Virus record (IMG/VR): IMGVR_UViG_2706795957_000001
Span: 29,578-93,577 of that record
DNA length: 64,000 nt
Strand: one strand, 5' to 3'
Source: a virus
Taxonomy: Duplodnaviria > Caudoviricetes
How positions within the stretch are numbered: position 1 is the first letter of the stretch; each line of letters begins with the position of its first letter. A model generated the notes under the pieces. That model saw only the letters and a list, made by a program, of their open reading frames with translations, ran no database searches and was not told the origin of the DNA. Shown in pieces: positions 19,141 to 64,000 of this stretch. The translations under genes and the position numbers were made by a program.

Positions 19141-19143
19141 CTG

Positions 19144-19218
19144 TGCCCTGGGTGGGGCTCGAACCCACGCATCTTCCGATTATGAGTCGGAGGCCTTCAC
19201 CAACTTGGCTACCAGGGC
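19144..19218 (-). tRNA. tRNA with CAU anticodon (Ile2 or Met); CCA not encoded
   Basis: GCCCTGG/CCAGGGC acceptor stem; TCCGA-CTCATAA-TCGGA anticodon arm; GTGGG-TTCGAGC-CCCAC T arm; GA-CTCATAA-TC context resembles Ile2. Confidence 0.93.
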
Positions 19219-27524: not shown

Positions 27525-28670
27525 ATGACAGATCCGACACAGACAGCAGCGGCAAAGGTTGGAGCTCGCATCAAAGCACTCCGCGAATCACACAACCTGA
27601 CCCAACGCCAGGCAGCAGACCTGATGGACTGGCACCACCTGACATGGCATCGCATCGAAAAGGGGGACACCAAGCAGTACAACGCAACCAGGCGCGCTGC
27701 GGCACAACAGGCAATCGCTGACAAGTTCGGTGTCGACCAGTACTTCCTGCGTGAGCAGCCGAACGTGGCGATGACGTCGACCAAGGTCATGCCGGTCACA
27801 GTCCTGAAGCGACTCAATGCCCTGCGAGTCGCCGGATGGAGCTCCCAGGACATCTCGGACGCGACCGGGATCCCCATGTTCGACCTGGAAGCCCTACAGA
27901 TGCGCGTGACGTCGGACTGCGAGCACGACCCCTACCGACCATCCATCTCCGCAGCGGTGGCCACCACACTGTTCGAAAACACCCCGAACATCTCCAAGCA
28001 CGGCGACGACGAGTTCGTTCCGGCACTTCCGGCTCACCTCCACATGCAAGACCTCGACGCCGCTGGCTATGGCGGTGTGGAGCAGTACACTTCAGCCTCC
28101 ACTGACCGCGACGGCCTCATCGTGATGCTGACGGGGGCAGGCAAGGACGTGCTGCGTCGACTGGGAACACACAAGTTCGCTTCGACGCACCTCGTGAGGC
28201 ATTCTCTGGCCACCGAGATCCTGTCCCTACCGTCCAACGTCAACGCGCGCATTCCGAGCGCTGTGGGGGCCACCAGGCGTCTGCAGGCGCTCGTCGCATG
28301 GGGATACGACCCAGACTGGCTGCAGGAGCTCCTGGGCCTCAGCGACCTACAGATGCACCGGACCCTGTACGGCACCAATGTCGATGCCCCGCTCGAGCGT
28401 GAGGCCGGGATTCGACTCGTCAAGGAGTTCAGCCGGCTCGAGCACATCCGTGGCAAGGACGACGACGCTGCCGAGATCGCCACCGAGATGGGGTGGGCCC
28501 TACCGTTCCAGTGGGACGAATACACTATTGACAAAATGGGCAGCAAGAAATGGCGTCGCCGCAAGGATCGTGGCGAGAAACCGCTTTATGAGGACTCGCC
28601 GGAAAAGCGTCTGGAAAACCTGCGTAAAGAATTCGAAGAATTCGTCATCGACCTCGGAAAGGCAGCATAA
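27525..28670 (+). CDS. Multi-HTH (XRE) DNA-binding protein
   Basis: VGARIKALRE..NLTQ.QAA....W.RIEKG; internal RL.AL...GW and RRLQAL...GY repeats. Confidence 0.8.
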   Translation: MTDPTQTAAAKVGARIKALRESHNLTQRQAADLMDWHHLTWHRIEKGDTKQYNATRRAAAQQAIADKFGVDQYFLREQPNVAMTSTKVMPVTVLKRLNALRVAGWSSQDISDATGIPMFDLEALQMRVTSDCEHDPYRPSISAAVATTLFENTPNISKHGDDEFVPALPAHLHMQDLDAAGYGGVEQYTSASTDRDGLIVMLTGAGKDVLRRLGTHKFASTHLVRHSLATEILSLPSNVNARIPSAVGATRRLQALVAWGYDPDWLQELLGLSDLQMHRTLYGTNVDAPLEREAGIRLVKEFSRLEHIRGKDDDAAEIATEMGWALPFQWDEYTIDKMGSKKWRRRKDRGEKPLYEDSPEKRLENLRKEFEEFVIDLGKAA

Positions 28671-58160: not shown

Positions 58161-58190
58161 ACACTATCAAACGTGTCTAGTGGAAGTCAA
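58161..58190 (-). promoter_or_regulatory. Promoter TTGACT-N18-TAGTGT
   Basis: TTGACTTCCAC family; TAGACA motifs in spacer and at -10. Confidence 0.75.
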
Positions 58191-58194
58191 CCCC

Positions 58195-58647
58195 TCAGGG
58201 GTGGTCGGTCCACTCGGTCGCGTTGGGGAAGTCGTCTTCCAGCGTGGTGAAGTCGCCGCGCTGGGAGTAGGGCTCAGCATCAACCAGGACCCATCGCTCA
58301 CTCGCGCCGTTCTGGAACACGACGCCGACCATGCCCTCAGGCACCGACTCTTGCCAGCTGCCCCATGCCGCACCGACCAGGTGCTTACCCTCGTCCAGCA
58401 ACGCGTTACGTCGATCCTCGCGCACCTGGGACTGTTCGGCACCCTCACGGCACCGATCGCCATGGACGCCGTTCAAGCCACCGCGCAGCTTGTAGCAGGC
58501 CGCGCAGTACGCCGGCGGGGGGCAGTAGTGCAGAGTCCCACCGTTGCGCAATGTCACCTTGTACTTGCACTTGCGACGTCGCACGCCGCCCGACTGTCCG
58601 CAGTTGTCGCAGACCAGTCGACCGCGCATGTCGTAGCAGTAACCCAT
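58195..58647 (-). CDS. Cys-rich hypothetical protein
   Basis: CxxC pairs; coupled to upstream ORF. Confidence 0.65.
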   Translation of the reverse strand: MGYCYDMRGRLVCDNCGQSGGVRRRKCKYKVTLRNGGTLHYCPPPAYCAACYKLRGGLNGVHGDRCREGAEQSQVREDRRNALLDEGKHLVGAAWGSWQESVPEGMVGVVFQNGASERWVLVDAEPYSQRGDFTTLEDDFPNATEWTDHP

Positions 58648-58650
58648 GAC

Positions 58651-59013
58651 TCAGTCCTCCAGCGATTCGGCCAGCGCGATGGTCTCGGTGATGTAGCCGT
58701 TGTCTTCCAGGTCGACCGACCAGTCACACATGACGTCGTAACCGTCGTTGCCGTAGACCAGGACGACGCCGTAGGGATCGTCCGACGTCGCCGGGTAGGC
58801 GAACAGCGTGTCCATGTCGGTATTCATGAGCTGGCTGAACAACGTGCCGGCGTCGGTGGTGCGCGGGTGACGCTCCTCGCCGTCGTGGACCGACAGTTCG
58901 AAGCCGTGTCCGAGCAGTTCGCGAACCAGCGACTTGACGATCCGGCGTTCGATCTTGTACCGGCGCTTGACGTTTGCGCTCATGTAGTCGGGCAGTTCCT
59001 TGTCGGTGTACAT
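58651..59013 (-). CDS. Hypothetical protein
   Basis: SD GGAAGG; LVYGNDGYDVMCD motif. Confidence 0.7.
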   Translation of the reverse strand: MYTDKELPDYMSANVKRRYKIERRIVKSLVRELLGHGFELSVHDGEERHPRTTDAGTLFSQLMNTDMDTLFAYPATSDDPYGVVLVYGNDGYDVMCDWSVDLEDNGYITETIALAESLED

Positions 59014-59423
59014 CAGAATTCCTTCCAGAGATGGGTGATACCGACCACGGCCACCAGGGTGACGACCGTGAACAGTGACGTGATGATGACGAACTGGAGT
59101 GCATGCAACCAGGGATTCATGTCACCACTCCTCATCCCAGGTGCAGTGGCACCGATCCTTGACGTACTCGCAGTACTCGCAGACGTTGTCCATGGGACAT
59201 CCTTTCGATCGAGCTAACCCATGTGTGGTGTGCCCACCTGTGAATTAGACAGATGGGCACACGGACACAGTGGTCAGTCCACGTTGCCGGACTTGGTCCA
59301 GGCGTTGGGCGTGTACTCGGCTTGGCCGCTGCGCGACTCGGCACGCAGGGTGTCGACGTCAACCTGGACCTGCTTGAGCAACAGCGTGTCGTCCATGTTC
59401 ATGGTGTCTCTCCTTTCTCGGGG

Positions 59424-60695
59424 TCAGGCCGCGGCGCGCGCGGCGATGGACTCGCGGGTGGGCACGGTGTTGCGGGCGATCAGGTGCCAGGCCTTGCCGT
59501 TGCCCATCTTTCGGCGGGCGTGGTCGGGATTGCGCCACATATCCCCGGCAATCCAGGGATGGTGGTACATGCTGCCGCGTGCCAGCATGGTGCCGTCGGG
59601 CAGCGTGGCGACCTCGGTTGCCGTGTGGGCCGTGCCGTACAGGGGCGTGCCGTCCGCCTGCTCGACCTCGCGGCGATGCTTGGGCTTGGTGATGCGGGTC
59701 GTGGGCATCATTTGCCACAGCCAGTGCCGACCGTAGTTCTTCCCCTGCCCGCTCAACCAGTAAGACCAGTCGCCGGTAAAGTCCACGGCCTCGACAGCCG
59801 GCACGAAGTCGGTGTCATCCTGCATCTTGAAGTTGTAGTCGTTCTCGACCCAATCGCGAACCGGGCCCGTGCGCTTGGTGATGACACCGCCCATACGCCT
59901 GATTTGGGCCGTCGTGATCTCGGTCGGGATTGCGAACATGTCACCCTGCCGGGTGACCTCACGACCCATGTCCTCAGCGGTGAGGACCGCCTCAGGCTTG
60001 AGCGACTGCATTGCGTCCTCGAACGACGACACCGGACGTGGCAACTCCGACAGGAAGTACAGCGGTCGCGACTCCTGCCGGTCGAACGATGACACGTAGT
60101 ACGCCGTGCGCTCGAACTCGCCCCACGGCTGAGTCTTGGCCGTGAATACGGCATCACCCAGCCAGTGCCGCACCGAATGCCAGCGGTAGGTGCCATCGGC
60201 GTCCAACTTGACCAGCTGGCCACCCGCGACCGATCCGACGAAGTGGTCGGTTGAGTCATTCACCCACACGTAGCGCGATCCGTAGTAGCCGGCGCGGACG
60301 TTGTCCACGATCATGCCGCCGGGTGCGACCGACGACGACTGCGCTGTGTACTCGAAGCCGTCCGCCTTGACGTCGATCGGTTCGATCGTCGCCGCCTTGA
60401 TGTTTGCGTTGCTCAGTGCCTCGAACGGCACGATCACGTAGGTGATCTCGGCGCGGGCCAGTGCGTTTCGCACCTCGGACTGGTGCCGGGTAGTCGACAC
60501 CGAGTAGGTGTCACCGTTGAGCACGGCGTGCCGGATCGTGCCGTCGTCGTTGCGGATGAGGATGCCCAGCGGGAAGTGGCGACCGTAGGAGTAGATGACG
60601 TCACCCTCGGAGAACACGTTGCAGCCGGCCAGGGTGGTGCGTAGACCCTTGGGGTTGCTTATCCACCGTGCGACCATCTTTTCGGTGTTGGACAT
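59424..60695 (-). CDS. Large hypothetical protein (423 aa)
   Basis: IYSY..H...NGD.YS.STT.HQS N-terminal domain; RQGD motif; SD AAAGG. Confidence 0.75.
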   Translation of the reverse strand: MSNTEKMVARWISNPKGLRTTLAGCNVFSEGDVIYSYGRHFPLGILIRNDDGTIRHAVLNGDTYSVSTTRHQSEVRNALARAEITYVIVPFEALSNANIKAATIEPIDVKADGFEYTAQSSSVAPGGMIVDNVRAGYYGSRYVWVNDSTDHFVGSVAGGQLVKLDADGTYRWHSVRHWLGDAVFTAKTQPWGEFERTAYYVSSFDRQESRPLYFLSELPRPVSSFEDAMQSLKPEAVLTAEDMGREVTRQGDMFAIPTEITTAQIRRMGGVITKRTGPVRDWVENDYNFKMQDDTDFVPAVEAVDFTGDWSYWLSGQGKNYGRHWLWQMMPTTRITKPKHRREVEQADGTPLYGTAHTATEVATLPDGTMLARGSMYHHPWIAGDMWRNPDHARRKMGNGKAWHLIARNTVPTRESIAARAAA

Positions 60696-61044
60696 GGGGT
60701 TGCCTTTCAGTGTGTTGAGCTAACCGTTGAGTGATCCGTCCAAGTGTTGGTTAGACACTTGGGCGGACGGACCCACAAGTCAGTTCCGGTATGCCGAGCT
60801 GTCGTTGTAGTAGCGGCCATCCCAGACGCAGGGCAGGCCATTGGTGTTGCCATCCTCGTACTCGCACGCGGGCAGCACTGCCACCATGGATGGTGGCACG
60901 TTGTCCAGGTCAACCGGTGCCGGTGCCTGATGTGCGATGAACAGGGACAGGATGAACGTGGTCACGAGCATGTGAACCTTTCTGATGTCTAGCTGATGAC
61001 TAGACACTAGCAAGCGTGAATAGTGGGTGTCAACCCTAGGTTAC

Positions 61045-61323
61045 TCAGCTGAAGAATGCGACCGACCAGCTGTTGATCGGCTCAGCGAACCAGTCGGACC
61101 CGAGCACCTCACGCGTGATCTGCTGCAGGTCGTCGCGCAGGTTCCAATCGTAGTCCGGGCACTCTTCCCAGCTCACCAGCCACGGGCAGCTGCTTTCCTC
61201 ATGACTGCCCGGGACCACCGTCGGTTGGTGGCCGACAAACCAGCCATCATCGAACTTGGCATCGTACTTGGCCGCGAGGCGTCGTGCGATCTCAGCGACC
61301 TGGTCGCGATTGAGGGTTGCCAT
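61045..61323 (-). CDS. Hypothetical protein
   Basis: Own promoter and SD. Confidence 0.65.
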   Translation of the reverse strand: MATLNRDQVAEIARRLAAKYDAKFDDGWFVGHQPTVVPGSHEESSCPWLVSWEECPDYDWNLRDDLQQITREVLGSDWFAEPINSWSVAFFS

Positions 61324-61371
61324 TCTGTTGCCCTTTCGGTGATTCTAGACTATCGAAGTCTGTAGTGGAAG

Positions 61372-61560
61372 TCAAGCAGCGAGCTTGACCAGCGAGACCC
61401 GCTTGACCAGCGAGACCACGGGACGAGCGTGCCGGCCCGAGCTGACATAGGGCTTTGTTCCGCGGAGTTCACCCCACGTCACGTCATCCCAGAGGTCGTA
61501 GATGTGTGCGAGCGCGTCGGTGGGGACGAGCCGCTTGTTATCGGTGCTGTGACGAGACAT
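61372..61560 (-). CDS. Hypothetical protein
   Basis: Own promoter and SD. Confidence 0.55.
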   Translation of the reverse strand: MSRHSTDNKRLVPTDALAHIYDLWDDVTWGELRGTKPYVSSGRHARPVVSLVKRVSLVKLAA

Positions 61561-61730
61561 GGTTCAGGCCTTTCGGATTCGGGAAGTTTGTTTCTCTCTC
61601 GTTCTGGTTTAAGTCTACCAGAGTAGTGAGTGGAAGTCAAACCGTAGTGGTCTGTGGTTTGCTAGCGTCGCAGTGACCATCTAGAACCTAAGTTTGACTG
61701 TGAGCACTGCCCACAGGTCGCCACCCATAG

Positions 61731-61784
61731 TGCGATGTGAGGAATCGAACCTCATCTACTTAGACAGTAGACACCATGCATCGC
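61731..61784 (-). ncRNA. D-armless tRNA-like element
   Basis: GCGATG/CATCGC stem; TCTAC-TGTCTAA-GTAGA arm; TGAGG-TTCGATT-CCTCA T arm. Confidence 0.6.
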
Positions 61785-61791
61785 TGTTTTG

Positions 61792-62322
61792 TCAAGCGTT
61801 GACAGTTGTGCCCATGGCGATGGTTGCCATGACAACCTCATTCTGTAGAGACTTGGGCACATTGGTACCCATCCAACGCTGCCAGTCGGCAGGGTCACGG
61901 TTGACCAGGCGCCGCGCGTACTCGTCGACCTGCCGCGCACGGTTAGCCGCTGCCCGAGACTTGTCCACAGACTTTCGGTTGACCTGCCGGACCGTGGACT
62001 TCCGAGTTTTGGGCAGACTTGTCCCAGTGCCGGCACGGACCTTTTTCCGACGGACCTCACCGAACTCTTCGACCAGCCCCATGCTGGACAGGTCGCGACG
62101 CCGCACCTCATATCCGCCCGGAGTCTCGACCACCTCACCACGATCGTAAAGGTAACCGCGTTCTTTGTCGGTGAGGTTCGACCACGGTTGCGCACCCTCA
62201 CGGTACTGCTGCCGTGACGTCCGAACCGAGTTGCGCGCCGTGACCCGCGGGTCTGCCGGACCACTCGGACCCCAGAAGTCACCATGGGGAAGTGGTCGGT
62301 TCGCGAACCTATCGTCACTCAT
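61792..62322 (-). CDS. Basic hypothetical protein
   Basis: Own promoter, SD AAAGG. Confidence 0.65.
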   Translation of the reverse strand: MSDDRFANRPLPHGDFWGPSGPADPRVTARNSVRTSRQQYREGAQPWSNLTDKERGYLYDRGEVVETPGGYEVRRRDLSSMGLVEEFGEVRRKKVRAGTGTSLPKTRKSTVRQVNRKSVDKSRAAANRARQVDEYARRLVNRDPADWQRWMGTNVPKSLQNEVVMATIAMGTTVNA

Positions 62323-62482
62323 TGGTCTAAACCTTTCTTTCTGCCGTTGCCCTTAAGTCTACCAGAGTAGTTAGTGGAAGTCAATCCTTGTCGGATTCGA
62401 GTTTGCTAGCGTCGCAGTGACTCTGTAATCCAAGGGTCGACAAACCGAGCCATGCCGGCATGTCACCACAATTCTGGTTGGT

Positions 62483-62527
62483 GGAATTACTCCGATTGAA
62501 CGGTAGGGCCCATGTCCCGGTAATTCC
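62483..62527 (-). ncRNA. Three-way-junction RNA element, copy 1
   Basis: GGAATTAC/GTAATTCC stem enclosing a conserved core. Confidence 0.65.
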
Positions 62528-62562
62528 CGATAACCTATTAAACCATAGGTCGGTGGTGGAAG

Positions 62563-62826
62563 TCAACCGAGTGAGAACAATTTGTCCTCATGAGCTTCAG
62601 CGCACGGTTCACAGTAGTGGAAGTGTTCACCATGCGCCTCGCACACCATGCGACGGCAGTACGCGGCCGCGACCTCGTAGTCGCGAAACGTCGTGATGGT
62701 CTCACCGTCGCGCGACACATGGTGCCGACCGTCGCGCTTGTCGACTGTCAGCGCGCCGTACTCGGACCGGACCCACCGACGACTGTCGTCGCGAACGATG
62801 GTCATATCGTGCTGGTCAACAAACAT
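62563..62826 (-). CDS. Hypothetical protein
   Basis: SD AAAGG within a duplicated leader. Confidence 0.6.
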   Translation of the reverse strand: MFVDQHDMTIVRDDSRRWVRSEYGALTVDKRDGRHHVSRDGETITTFRDYEVAAAYCRRMVCEAHGEHFHYCEPCAEAHEDKLFSLG

Positions 62827-62862
62827 GACAGAACCTTTCACTAGAAACGGATCTAACAGAGT

Positions 62863-62909
62863 GGCAATACTCCGATTGAACGGTAGGGCCCTAATGTCCC
62901 GGTATTGCC
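62863..62909 (-). ncRNA. Three-way-junction RNA element, copy 2
   Basis: GGCAATAC/GTATTGCC stem; part of an ~85-bp leader duplicated near 63147-63236. Confidence 0.65.
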
Positions 62910-62920
62910 TCACGGTTCGA

Positions 62921-63142
62921 CTACGCGGTGTGTTGGGAGTACTTCAGAAAAATGGTGTCGATGCTCGGATCGCTACCGTCGCCGATCTTTACCATGGTCC
63001 CGATCATGGTGTCATTCACGCAACGGATGCATCGGCCATTGGCGATGGTATCGGCATAGGCGATAGCGTCGAGCTCGGTCCGAACCGAGAAACTACGCGC
63101 GGCACCACACTCGGACGTTGTTGTTACCTCATGAATCCACAT
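62921..63142 (-). CDS. Hypothetical protein
   Basis: SD GGAAGG within the duplicated leader. Confidence 0.55.
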   Translation of the reverse strand: MWIHEVTTTSECGAARSFSVRTELDAIAYADTIANGRCIRCVNDTMIGTMVKIGDGSDPSIDTIFLKYSQHTA

Positions 63143-63180
63143 GGCAGAACCTTCCACTAGAAAACGGATCATTACAGAGT

Positions 63181-63227
63181 GGCAATACTCCGATTGAACG
63201 GTAGGGCCCTAATGTCCCGGTATTGCC
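63181..63227 (-). ncRNA. Three-way-junction RNA element, copy 3
   Basis: Identical to copy 2; begins just after the predicted TSS. Confidence 0.65.
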
Positions 63228-63264
63228 TTAACGGTTAAATTGAACCATAGGTGGGGAGTGGAAG

Positions 63265-63513
63265 TCAACCCTTAACCGTACCGGGGACAACGGATGTCAC
63301 GTACTCACCGGAGTGAGTGACAACCGTGACGTATCGACCGTCGTGAGACTCGTCGACGATGATGAGGTCCAGCTCATCATTCAAGTCGACAGACACAATC
63401 GCGTCTCCGTTGTCGTTGGCAGACCACAGAATCCGGTAGGCCATGTTCGCCATGTCATCCGACAGTGCCAGGTCGTCGACTCGGTTGAGCGCTTCGGTGG
63501 TGGTGAGTGTCAT
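63265..63513 (-). CDS. Acidic hypothetical protein, first gene of leftward arm
   Basis: SD AAAGGGA; promoter at 63541-63570. Confidence 0.6.
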   Translation of the reverse strand: MTLTTTEALNRVDDLALSDDMANMAYRILWSANDNGDAIVSVDLNDELDLIIVDESHDGRYVTVVTHSGEYVTSVVPGTVKG

Positions 63514-63737
63514 TTCATCCCTTTCATTGAACCGACTCCCATTAAACCACGTGTCAGGAGTGGAAGTCAATTCCTCCCGCGCGGTGTCGGTGGGGTCGGT
63601 GCGTGTCATGAGAGAGAATCTATCAGGTGGCACCCCTACTTAGGGAAGCCTAATCCGTGACAACATTGGTTGTCACCAGGCCGGCCTAGTGTCACAGTGA
63701 CGTTTCTGCCCGTACCTCGGACCTAGGACGTCGGCGC

Positions 63738-63830
63738 TGCCGGCAGGGTCGCCGCCTGGTCGCCGCCTGGTCGCCGCCGGCAGGGTCGCCGCCTGGTCGC
63801 CGCCTGGTCGCCGCCGGCAGGGTCGCCGCC
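63738..63830. repeat. Tandem GGTCGCCGCC units (7) with T or GGCAG linkers, near the probable genome end
   Basis: Seen directly; non-coding; followed by two AAACCGC(T/A)GGTCA motifs. Confidence 0.8.
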
Positions 63831-64000
63831 GCCCTACCGAGCGCTCGCTCGGTGCCGGTACCCGGGGAGGGTATGCCGCCCGACCGAGCGCTCGTTCGGT
63901 CCACCCAAAACCGCTGGTCAGGGCGCCGGCGAGGGTCCGAAAAATCGGAAAACCGCAGGTCAACCCCCCCGCCGCCCCCCGCCGCCGCCGCGCGACGCTC

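What the first reader, a model, noticed from the sequence alone, without database searches (positions are those of the whole stretch)
62483..63227. Triplicated 5'-leader three-way-junction RNA with T-loop-like hairpin
Seen: three copies on the transcribed strand of stem-CGGGACAU(UA)GGGCCC-UA-CCG-UUCAAU-CGG-A-stem. The 8-bp closing stem covaries (GGAAUUAC/GUAAUUCC versus GGCAAUAC/GUAUUGCC) while the core is fixed. Copies 1 and 3 start within about 5 nt of predicted TSSs. The GG-containing loop plus UUCAAU loop resemble a tRNA elbow lacking an anticodon arm. Inference: a put-like nascent-RNA antiterminator, a 5' exonuclease (RNase J) block, or a tRNA mimic made very early in infection.
Basis: partly seen in the sequence, partly recalled or inferred. 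Interest (0 to 1): 0.75.

Follow-up and report, generated by a model that had tools for sequence, protein, structure and literature searches.

The report
Small tRNA-corner-like leader RNA in phage
Three copies of a 45-47-base folded RNA sit at the start of, or between, the first genes a Gordonia phage switches on; the fold is well supported by comparison with related phages and looks like the top half of a tRNA, but what it does has not been tested.

Summary
The element is on the minus strand at 63227-63181, 62909-62863 and 62527-62483, and nowhere else in the 93,577-bp genome, whose length matches Gordonia phage OneUp.

- **Copies:** Copies 2 and 3 are one duplicated unit of about 95 nt that includes the ribosome-binding site.
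- **Relatives:** Cluster CQ relatives add six further versions. No exact core was found in the other genomes or metagenomes scanned, and Rfam has no match.
- **Fold:** P1 has four covarying pairs and P3 has one. Three G.U pairs fit only the transcribed strand. The 1-2 nt loop indels rule out coding. P2 and all loops are invariant, while the flanks are only 16-75% identical.
- **Position:** In nearly all versions the element starts 7-11 nt after the -10 of a TTGACTTCCAC-type promoter. Copy 2 has no promoter. In BrutonGaster the gap is only 2 nt.
- **Context:** A paralogous cassette holds a T-arm-bearing tRNA-like element in the same slot. WilliamBoone's version of it has the same three-arm layout.

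My best reading (about 0.4) is an anticodon-arm-less tRNA look-alike that tRNA end-processing enzymes cut, leaving protected early mRNA ends. Plain 5' stabiliser, protein-binding site and put-like antiterminator remain open. No RNA data exist. The scan had not noted this element on other DNA. It had noted other phage tRNA-like leader modules.

The parts
63181..63227 (-). Copy 3 of the three-way-junction RNA (47 nt): P1 8 bp, P2 GGG/CCC with a GG-containing loop, P3 CCG/CGG with loop UUCAAU
   Evidence: 75.1 bits
62863..62909 (-). Copy 2, identical to copy 3. It is intercistronic, lies 11 nt after the stop of the upstream 73-aa gene, and has no promoter
62483..62527 (-). Copy 1 (45 nt), with two compensatory changes in P1 and a P2 loop 2 nt shorter. 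It is the orthologue of the copy present in every Cluster CQ relative
63239..63268 (-). Promoter-like site upstream of copy 3 (TTGACT, 18 nt, TGG-TTCAAT). Its -35 overlaps the stop codon of the upstream gene
   Evidence: family D4. Prediction only
62537..62566 (-). Promoter-like site upstream of copy 1 (TTGACT, 18 nt, TGG-TTTAAT)
   Evidence: The homologous site in CQ1 phages has TAGGCT as its -10
63140..63180 (-). Leader between copy 3 and the ATG of a 73-aa gene. It is duplicated together with the element
   Evidence: family D5
62824..62862 (-). Leader between copy 2 and the ATG of an unrelated 87-aa Cys/His-rich gene. It is a duplicate of the leader after copy 3
62385..62482 (-). Conserved non-coding spacer after copy 1. 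It holds hairpin H1 (variable sequence, kept pairing) and hairpin H2 (invariant apex), and runs into the next promoter
   Evidence: family D3
62356..62384 (-). Next promoter-like site (TTGACT, 17 nt, TGG-TAGACT), which serves the conserved 176-aa gene
61792..62322 (-). Conserved basic 176-aa protein (phrog_14511, unknown function). The conserved copy of the element lies upstream of its homologue in every relative
61732..61784 (-). Context: a D-arm-less tRNA-like element with a perfect T arm. It occupies the same slot in a paralogous cassette
61612..61731 (-). Context: the paralogous spacer (H1, H2 with the same apex) and promoter of the second cassette
   Evidence: family D3, 84% over 69 nt

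Best explanation
The element is a cis-encoded structured RNA module of the leftward transcripts at the right genome end of Cluster CQ Gordonia phages, presumed early by position. It folds into a three-way junction that copies the upper half of a tRNA. P1 is acceptor-like and would stack on the T-arm-like P3, whose loop is UUCAA+U. P2 is a D-arm-like hairpin whose loop ends in GG. There is no anticodon arm. Inferred mechanism: the host's tRNA end-processing enzymes treat it as a tRNA. RNase P would cut at the 5' edge of P1, and 3' trimming might follow after the purine-C tail. This would cut the early transcripts into units and leave the downstream message, or a released small RNA, with a fully paired, nuclease-resistant end. 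Shown here: the fold, its conservation, its strand and its position. Inferred: the tertiary elbow, the processing and the effect on stability.
For: 1. Fold: 96.4% of cells are paired. Five pairs have changes on both sides (four in P1, one in P3). 0 of 500 shuffles reach the covariation score, and slid controls collapse to 32-46% paired.
2. Alternative fold: the alternative minimum-energy fold of copy 1 is broken in 4 of 8 versions by exactly the two changes that compensate each other in P3.
3. Strand and coding: three G.U cells (BrutonGaster, Smoothie copy A, Abscondus) would be A.C on the other strand. Loop indels of 1-2 nt exclude a coding constraint.
4. Selection: the core is 87-97% identical where the P1 arms are 38-75% identical and the flanks 16-75%.
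5. tRNA-like letters: UUCAA, the GG of the P2 loop, and a length-variable stretch just 5' of that GG (as in tRNA D-loops) are kept in all eight versions.
6. Context: a paralogous cassette (69 nt at 84%, same hairpin apex, same promoter type) carries a tRNA-like element with the T arm GGUUCGAUUCC in the same slot. That element gives weak tRNA-clan hits and covaries across relatives. WilliamBoone's version of it has the same three-arm layout as our element, with a GG-bearing small hairpin and a canonical 7-nt loop UUCAAUC.
7. Position: one to three copies per genome, all on the transcribed strand within about 1.5 kb of the right end. All lie just after a stop codon or promoter.
8. Published background: RNase P measures from the elbow along the acceptor/T stack and does not read sequence (PMC4919913). 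tRNA-like t-elements define mRNA ends in plant mitochondria (PMC1920247).
Against: - No tRNA-clan or other Rfam model matches the element, even in a 71-nt search at E up to 10. ARAGORN finds nothing.
- The loop has 6 nt, not the 7 of a tRNA T loop. P2 and P3 are only 3 bp, and P2 never varies, so P2 itself is untested.
- In half of the versions the P3 closing pair is C-G, not the G53-C61 of tRNAs.
- Folding energy is not exceptional (z -1.2 to -1.7).
- The stack from loop to P1 end is 11-12 layers and is not constant.
- For the promoter-proximal copies, RNase P would remove only a few nucleotides, so the benefit is unclear.
- In BrutonGaster the -10 lies 2 nt from P1, so that promoter's transcript would lack part of the stem.
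- No transcript ends are known.
Confidence: 0.4

Rival explanations
1. It is a generic 5'-terminal protective structure. A stable junction within a few nucleotides of the transcript start would block 5'-end-dependent decay by RNase E or RNase J and insulate the downstream ribosome-binding site, with no link to tRNA enzymes.
For: P1 starts 7-11 nt after the -10 in OneUp copies 1 and 3 and in the CQ1 and WilliamBoone versions. That is about 0-5 nt after a predicted start. The P1 sequence is free to change as long as it pairs. The stable non-coding RNA made from the right-end early promoter of Cluster A mycobacteriophages is a precedent (PMC5712189).
Against: A simple stabiliser does not need 31 invariant core nucleotides. 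Copy 2 is internal and has no promoter. BrutonGaster's spacing would truncate P1. The equivalent slot in the paralogous cassette holds a tRNA-like element that is not at a 5' end in OneUp.
Confidence: 0.2
2. It is the RNA binding site of a sequence-specific protein. The protein could be a phage early protein, such as the conserved basic 176-aa protein encoded downstream, or a host factor. The effect would be N/nut-like antitermination or translational autoregulation.
For: The loops and junction are invariant while the stems are free to change, which is typical of protein-recognised RNAs. The conserved copy lies upstream of the phrog_14511 gene in every relative, and only 54 nt upstream in BrutonGaster. 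That protein has an Arg/Lys-rich centre.
Against: No RNA-binding family or fold could be assigned to any neighbouring protein. There is no boxA/boxB-type hairpin. Copies 2 and 3 serve unrelated genes. No terminators are predicted downstream.
Confidence: 0.2
3. It is a put-like element: the nascent RNA binds the transcribing RNA polymerase directly and makes it resistant to termination.
For: It is promoter-proximal and made in cis at the head of early operons, with a structure-plus-sequence conservation pattern. The roughly 150-nt untranslated leader after copy 1 would otherwise be exposed to Rho.
Against: The topology (a 47-nt three-way junction) differs from the two tandem stem-loops of HK022 put (own knowledge). 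No intrinsic terminators are predicted in the downstream 6 kb on this strand, apart from one weak site inside a gene. The paralogous slot is filled by a tRNA-like RNA.
Confidence: 0.07
4. It is a DNA-level site: an operator for a regulator sitting just downstream of the promoters, or a strand-specific single-stranded DNA hairpin signal.
For: The core is invariant, contains the palindrome GGGCCC, is flanked by an inverted repeat, and lies next to promoters.
Against: The two arms of the inverted repeat differ between copies within one genome yet stay complementary. G.T pairs are tolerated on one strand only. A second small stem (P3) covaries inside the 'site'. One copy has no promoter to regulate.
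Confidence: 0.05
5. It is a switch or trans-acting RNA: a ligand- or factor-responsive leader that alternates with a structure hiding the ribosome-binding site, or a released small decoy or antisense RNA like P4 CI or P1 C4.
For: For copy 3, the full-leader minimum-energy fold pairs the 5' arm of P1 with the ribosome-binding region. In Smoothie copy A, 9 nt of the leader are perfectly complementary to P3 (duplex p about 0.007).
Against: The element-leader complementarity is not significant in OneUp (p 0.08 and 0.15) and is absent in BrutonGaster. Copy 1 orthologues have no adjacent ribosome-binding site. No complementary target of 10 nt or more exists in the genome, apart from the trivial antisense strand and a chance site at 28495.
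Confidence: 0.06

Closest known systems
Plant-mitochondrial t-elements and tRNA punctuation (Forner et al. 2007, PMC1920247)
   Same: These are non-decoding tRNA-like folds placed between or ahead of coding regions, proposed or shown to direct RNase P and RNase Z cuts that define mRNA ends. The neighbouring cassette element even carries the GGTTCRANYCC T-arm motif used to find t-elements.
   Different: The element here is much smaller and has no anticodon arm. Its hairpin reads CCGTTCAATCGG, with a 6-nt loop and a 3-bp stem. It sits in a bacterial virus right after promoters, and no transcript ends have been mapped.
Abundant stable non-coding RNAs from the Pleft early promoter at the right end of Cluster A mycobacteriophages (L5, D29, StarStuff; PMC5712189)
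   Same: The genome position and orientation match: a leftward early promoter at the right end of an actinobacteriophage genome. In both cases a non-coding leader precedes the first genes. A stable 5' end was reported for the Cluster A RNAs.
   Different: The Cluster A RNAs are about 100-500 nt and have no described tRNA-like junction. No sequence or structure relation was tested here.
YrlA-type Y RNAs, phage T4 species 1 RNA (rnaC) and mascRNA: tRNA look-alikes that do not decode
   Same: They use acceptor-, D- and T-like parts to imitate the tRNA corner while lacking a usable anticodon.
   Different: Those are separate RNA genes or 3'-end elements of 60-140 nt that tRNA-type models recognise. 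This one gave no Rfam match of any kind and is embedded in mRNA leaders.
HK022 put RNA and lambda nut sites
   Same: These are promoter-proximal RNA elements made in cis at the head of phage early operons.
   Different: put is two tandem stem-loops of about 70 nt, and nut is boxA plus a 15-nt boxB hairpin bound by N (own knowledge). Neither layout is present, and no downstream terminators are evident.
5'-terminal stabiliser stem-loops (E. coli ompA leader, B. subtilis aprE and ermC leaders)
   Same: A paired structure lies within a few nucleotides of the transcript start.
   Different: Those work through stability and position, not through a conserved core. Here 31 internal nucleotides are invariant and one copy is internal.

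Membership tests
tRNA / tRNA clan (Rfam CL00001) | Cloverleaf with an anticodon arm, recognised by tRNA covariance models or tRNA finders | tested here: not met
   No Rfam hit at E up to 10 in a 71-nt search. ARAGORN finds nothing at default or relaxed settings. There is no anticodon arm.
T-loop motif | Five-nucleotide loop sequence U-U/G-N-R-A closed by a Watson-Crick pair | tested here: met
   UUCAA, followed by U, is invariant in 8 of 8 versions. The closing stem covaries CCG/CGG, CCC/GGG and UCC/GGG.
T-loop motif | Reverse-Hoogsteen pair between positions 1 and 5, and a base intercalated between positions 4 and 5 (here the GG of P2) | not testable with these tools
   This needs chemical probing or a solved structure. 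All nucleotides involved never vary, so covariation is silent.
t-element-type processing signal | Conserved T-arm motif GGTTCRANYCC | tested here: not met
   The element has CCGTTCAATCGG or CCCTTCAATGGG, with a 6-nt loop. The neighbouring cassette element does match, with GGTTCGATTCC.
t-element-type processing signal | Transcript 5' or 3' ends that coincide with the edges of the element, and cleavage by RNase P or Z | not testable with these tools
   No RNA run was listed for this phage.
HK022 put | Two tandem stem-loops joined by one unpaired base, acting ahead of terminators | tested here: not met
   The consensus fold is a three-way junction closed by P1. No convincing terminator lies downstream.
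lambda-type nut site | boxA sequence plus a boxB hairpin with a GNRA-like pentaloop | tested here: not met
   The loops are AU(N0-2)GG and UUCAAU, with no pentaloop hairpin. No consistent boxA-like sequence follows the copies.
5'-terminal stabiliser | Structure begins within about 4 nt of the real 5' end | tested here: inconclusive
   Spacing from the predicted -10 fits for seven of the nine distinct contexts. It fails for copy 2 (no promoter) and for BrutonGaster (2 nt). Transcript starts have not been mapped.
RNase P-processed leader antisense RNAs (P4 CI, P1 C4) | Loops complementary to target sequences in the same phage's transcripts | tested here: not met
   There is no non-trivial complementary match of 10 nt or more in the 93.6-kb genome.

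The most novel reading that the evidence does not exclude
A minimal 45-47-nt imitation of the tRNA corner, with no anticodon arm, is built into the first transcripts of a phage so that the host's tRNA-maturation enzymes (RNase P, possibly RNase Z or the CCA-adding enzyme) process and protect viral mRNAs. This would be tRNA-punctuation-type mRNA maturation in a bacterial virus, using the smallest natural elbow mimic described so far. The released mini-RNA might also act as a decoy for elbow-reading host factors.
Probability: 0.3. Interest if true: 0.7.

Novelty: new variant of a known kind. Interest (0 to 1): 0.5.

Why it matters
How actinobacteriophage early transcripts are matured and stabilised is largely unknown, although abundant stable non-coding RNAs from right-end early promoters have been seen in mycobacteriophages. 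A compact, well-defined and phylogenetically supported RNA module gives a concrete handle on this. It is small enough for complete mutagenesis and structure determination. It occurs as a swappable leader in front of unrelated genes, and it sits beside related tRNA-like modules. If it is an RNase P substrate, it would show that phages of Actinobacteria use tRNA-like punctuation for mRNAs, and it would be a compact natural part for RNA engineering in Gordonia and Mycobacterium. If it is not, it is still a new RNA motif for the family libraries.

Tried and rejected
- **Rfam:** a scan of 60000-64000 and of the element alone found nothing for the element.
- **tRNA finders:** ARAGORN at standard, mitochondrial and relaxed settings made no call on the element or on the neighbouring tRNA-like element.
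- **Wider distribution:** the exact-core pattern gave 0 matches in genome contigs and in metagenome contigs. A looser pattern in viral contigs gave 49 loci, and all those outside Cluster CQ were coding-sequence coincidences.
- **Expression data:** no RNA holder was listed among public sequencing runs, so transcript ends could not be examined.
- **Trans targets:** an antisense search found none of 10 nt or more.
- **Switch idea:** element-leader pairing was significant only in Smoothie copy A and was not general.
- **Alternative fold:** the extended-stem fold of copy 1 is broken in half of the versions.
- **Neighbouring proteins:** Pfam, PHROGs and the ESM Atlas gave no function. The homologue search found only Cluster CQ proteins. 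The AlphaFold model of the 176-aa protein had mean pLDDT 53, so no fold search was run.
- **Terminators:** the scan found nothing convincing on the transcribed strand.
- **Literature:** no paper describing this element or tRNA-like leaders in actinobacteriophages was found.

Full report
**What and where**

The window is the right 64 kb of a 93,577-bp virus record and ends at the genome's right end. That length equals the published length of Gordonia phage OneUp, subcluster CQ2 (table in PMC5559632). The identification is an inference from size and from the relatives found.

Genes at this end are on the minus strand. Shuffled sequence gives no match. A covariance model built later finds no further copy in the window or in the whole genome.

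Copies 2 and 3 are identical. They are part of a duplicated leader of about 95 nt that carries the ribosome-binding site and start codon, placed in front of two unrelated small genes. The window therefore holds two independent versions, not three.

**Surroundings**

Seven exact copies of TTGACTTCCAC, all on the minus strand, mark promoter-like sites with TGG plus a -10 hexamer 17-18 nt downstream.
- Copies 3 and 1 begin 11 and 9 nt after the hexamers TTCAAT and TTTAAT. This would be about 2-5 nt after a typical start.
- These two hexamers lack the usual A at position 2, and no start site has been mapped.
- Copy 2 has no promoter. It lies 11 nt after the stop of the 73-aa gene and 36 nt before the ATG of an 87-aa gene.
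- Copy 1 is followed by about 100 nt of conserved non-coding sequence, then another promoter, then a conserved basic 176-aa gene (phrog_14511, unknown function).
- None of the neighbouring proteins has an assignable function.

**Relatives**

Similar DNA exists only in Cluster CQ Gordonia phages, genera Smoothievirus and Oneupvirus.
- The exact core was absent from 185,579 prokaryote genomes and from the metagenome collection.
- Looser matches in viral contigs outside this cluster are coding coincidences.
- Each relative has one or two copies, always on the transcribed strand within about 1.5 kb of the right end.
- One copy always lies upstream of the phrog_14511 homologue.
- In every relative the element follows a TTGACTTCCACC...TAGGCT-type promoter by 7-10 nt. 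The exception is BrutonGaster, where only 2 nt separate the -10 from P1, so that promoter's transcript would lack part of the stem.

**The fold**

Eight distinct versions align without difficulty. Counted on the three-way junction:
- 96.4% of cells pair.
- Five pairs show changes on both sides: four in the closing stem P1 and one in the UUCAAU hairpin P3 (CCG/CGG versus CCC/GGG).
- 0 of 500 shuffles reach the covariation score.
- Sliding the partners drops pairing to 32-46%.

RNAalifold independently returns the same structure. The alternative minimum-energy fold of copy 1 is broken in half of the versions by the same two changes that compensate each other in P3.

Three G.U pairs (BrutonGaster, Smoothie copy A, Abscondus) are acceptable only on the transcribed strand. 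The P2 loop carries indels of 0, 1 or 2 nt, which excludes a coding constraint on either strand.

P2 (GGG/CCC) and all loops and junction bases never vary, so P2 itself is neither supported nor contradicted. The core is 87-97% identical between phages whose P1 arms are 38-75% identical and whose flanks are 16-75% identical. Folding energy alone is unremarkable (z -1.2 to -1.7). With 3-bp arms, the junction probably needs tertiary contacts or a partner to be stable.

**Is it tRNA-like?**

Direct tests fail. No Rfam model matches, not even a tRNA-clan model, in a 71-nt search at E up to 10. ARAGORN calls nothing.

Three things speak for the resemblance.
1. **Invariant letters.** The invariant letters are those of a tRNA corner. 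The loop UUCAA fits the T-loop consensus. The GG sits at the 3' side of the P2 loop. The only length-variable spot lies directly 5' of that GG, as in tRNA D-loops.
2. **Stack length.** The 3' strand from the loop to the end of P1 is 11-12 nt, close to the 12-bp acceptor/T stack that RNase P measures from the elbow (PMC4919913). The number is not constant.
3. **Paralogous cassette.** This is the strongest point.
   - About 750 nt further along the transcript lies a paralogous cassette. It has the same spacer with the same invariant hairpin apex and the same promoter, at 84% over 69 nt.
   - One stretch of the OneUp second-cassette spacer closely matches the first-cassette spacer of Bachita.
   - In the slot where our element sits, this second cassette has a 53-nt RNA with a 6-bp acceptor-like stem, an anticodon-like arm and a perfect T arm (GGUUCGAUUCC).
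   - That RNA gives weak tRNA-Sec and mascRNA hits (E about 0.4). It folds well (z -3.1) and covaries across relatives.
   - In WilliamBoone the same slot holds a three-way junction with the layout of our element: closing stem, a 3-bp hairpin whose loop reads AUACGG, and a 7-bp T arm with the canonical 7-nt loop UUCAAUC.

The phages therefore keep interchangeable tRNA-derived junctions at this position, and the element under study is the most reduced of them.

A post hoc observation: the two bases after P1 are purine-C in all versions (ACCA, ACUC, GCGA, GCUA). This resembles a discriminator base plus C74.

**Mechanism**

The reading I commit to, at about 0.4, is that the module is recognised as a tRNA by host end-processing enzymes. 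RNase P would cut at the 5' edge of P1. This would punctuate the early transcripts and leave paired, protected ends. The closest precedent is plant-mitochondrial t-elements (PMC1920247). The fold, strand, conservation and position are shown here. The elbow contact, the cleavage and the consequence are inferred.

Rivals:
- **Plain 5' stabiliser (0.2).** It fits the position but not the invariant core or copy 2.
- **Site for a sequence-specific RNA-binding protein (0.2).** The candidate is perhaps the basic protein encoded downstream. The invariant loops fit, but no protein evidence could be obtained. The AlphaFold model was too poor to search with.
- **put-like polymerase binder (0.07).** The topology is wrong and no terminators were found.
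- **DNA site (0.05).** It is contradicted by within-genome stem differences, G.U asymmetry and P3 covariation.
- **Switch or trans-acting RNA (0.06).** Pairing with the leader is significant only in one relative, and no complementary targets exist.

**What is known and what is new**

No paper describing this element, or tRNA-like leaders in actinobacteriophages, was found. The nearest described phenomenon by position is the abundant stable non-coding RNA made from the right-end early promoter of Cluster A mycobacteriophages (PMC5712189).

Earlier notes of this scan record this element only on this same window. They do record other non-decoding tRNA-like modules in leaders of unrelated phages. 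Those notes are unchecked leads and were not used as evidence.

I rate the element as a new variant of a known kind (tRNA-like cis elements). It is real and well supported as a structure. It is narrowly distributed, in about 20 sequenced phages of one cluster, and its function is untested.

Noticed in passing
window 61732-61784 (-): A 53-nt D-arm-less tRNA-like RNA lies 8 nt after the stop of the 176-aa gene. It has a 6-bp acceptor-like stem, a 5-bp arm with a 7-nt loop and a perfect T arm. It gives weak tRNA-Sec and mascRNA hits, and it is conserved and covarying in CQ1 phages. ARAGORN does not call it.
   Followed up: partly
window 61641-61731 and 62385-62482 (-): Two paralogous spacers of about 95 nt each hold a hairpin of variable sequence but kept pairing. 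Each also holds a second hairpin with an invariant 21-nt apex (GTCACTGCGACGCTAGCAAAC) closed by covarying flanks (GAGU/ACUC versus UGGU/ACCA). Each runs into the next promoter. Together with the junction they may form a non-coding RNA of about 150 nt.
   Followed up: partly
window 58180-63570 (-): Seven exact copies of TTGACTTCCAC extend the -35 of leftward promoters. The TGA inside TTGAC often serves as the stop codon of the upstream gene. There are two -10 types: TGG-TAGACT and the unusual TGG-TTYAAT.
   Followed up: partly
window 61385-61425 (-) and relatives (L008, L009, L011): The motif CTGGTCAAGC lies directly upstream of several of these promoters and is repeated twice at 61385-61425. 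It encodes a C-terminal ...SLVK... tail of the preceding small proteins. It could be a protein tail, an upstream promoter element or a binding site.
   Followed up: no
window 62563-62826 and 62921-63142 (-): The two small genes behind copies 2 and 3 are unrelated to each other and have no family match. The 87-aa one is rich in Cys and His (C-x4-C ... H-x3-H ... C-x2-C) and may bind zinc.
   Followed up: no
window 63720-63900: Near the right cohesive end there are tandem GC-rich repeats (units of GGTCGCCGCC) and two copies of a palindromic CCGAGCGCTCG-type motif. The last 140 bp are 85% identical to the right end of phage BrutonGaster.
   Followed up: no
window 19143-19218 (-); genome 4.1-5.4 kb (outside the window): A tRNA-Met gene lies in the window. 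[quoted passage not shown]
   Followed up: no
L008 1143-1255 (BrutonGaster): BrutonGaster lacks the spacer and second promoter. Its element sits 2 nt after a -10 and 54 nt before the start of the phrog_14511 homologue, so the stem would be truncated in that promoter's transcript unless transcription reads in from upstream.
   Followed up: partly
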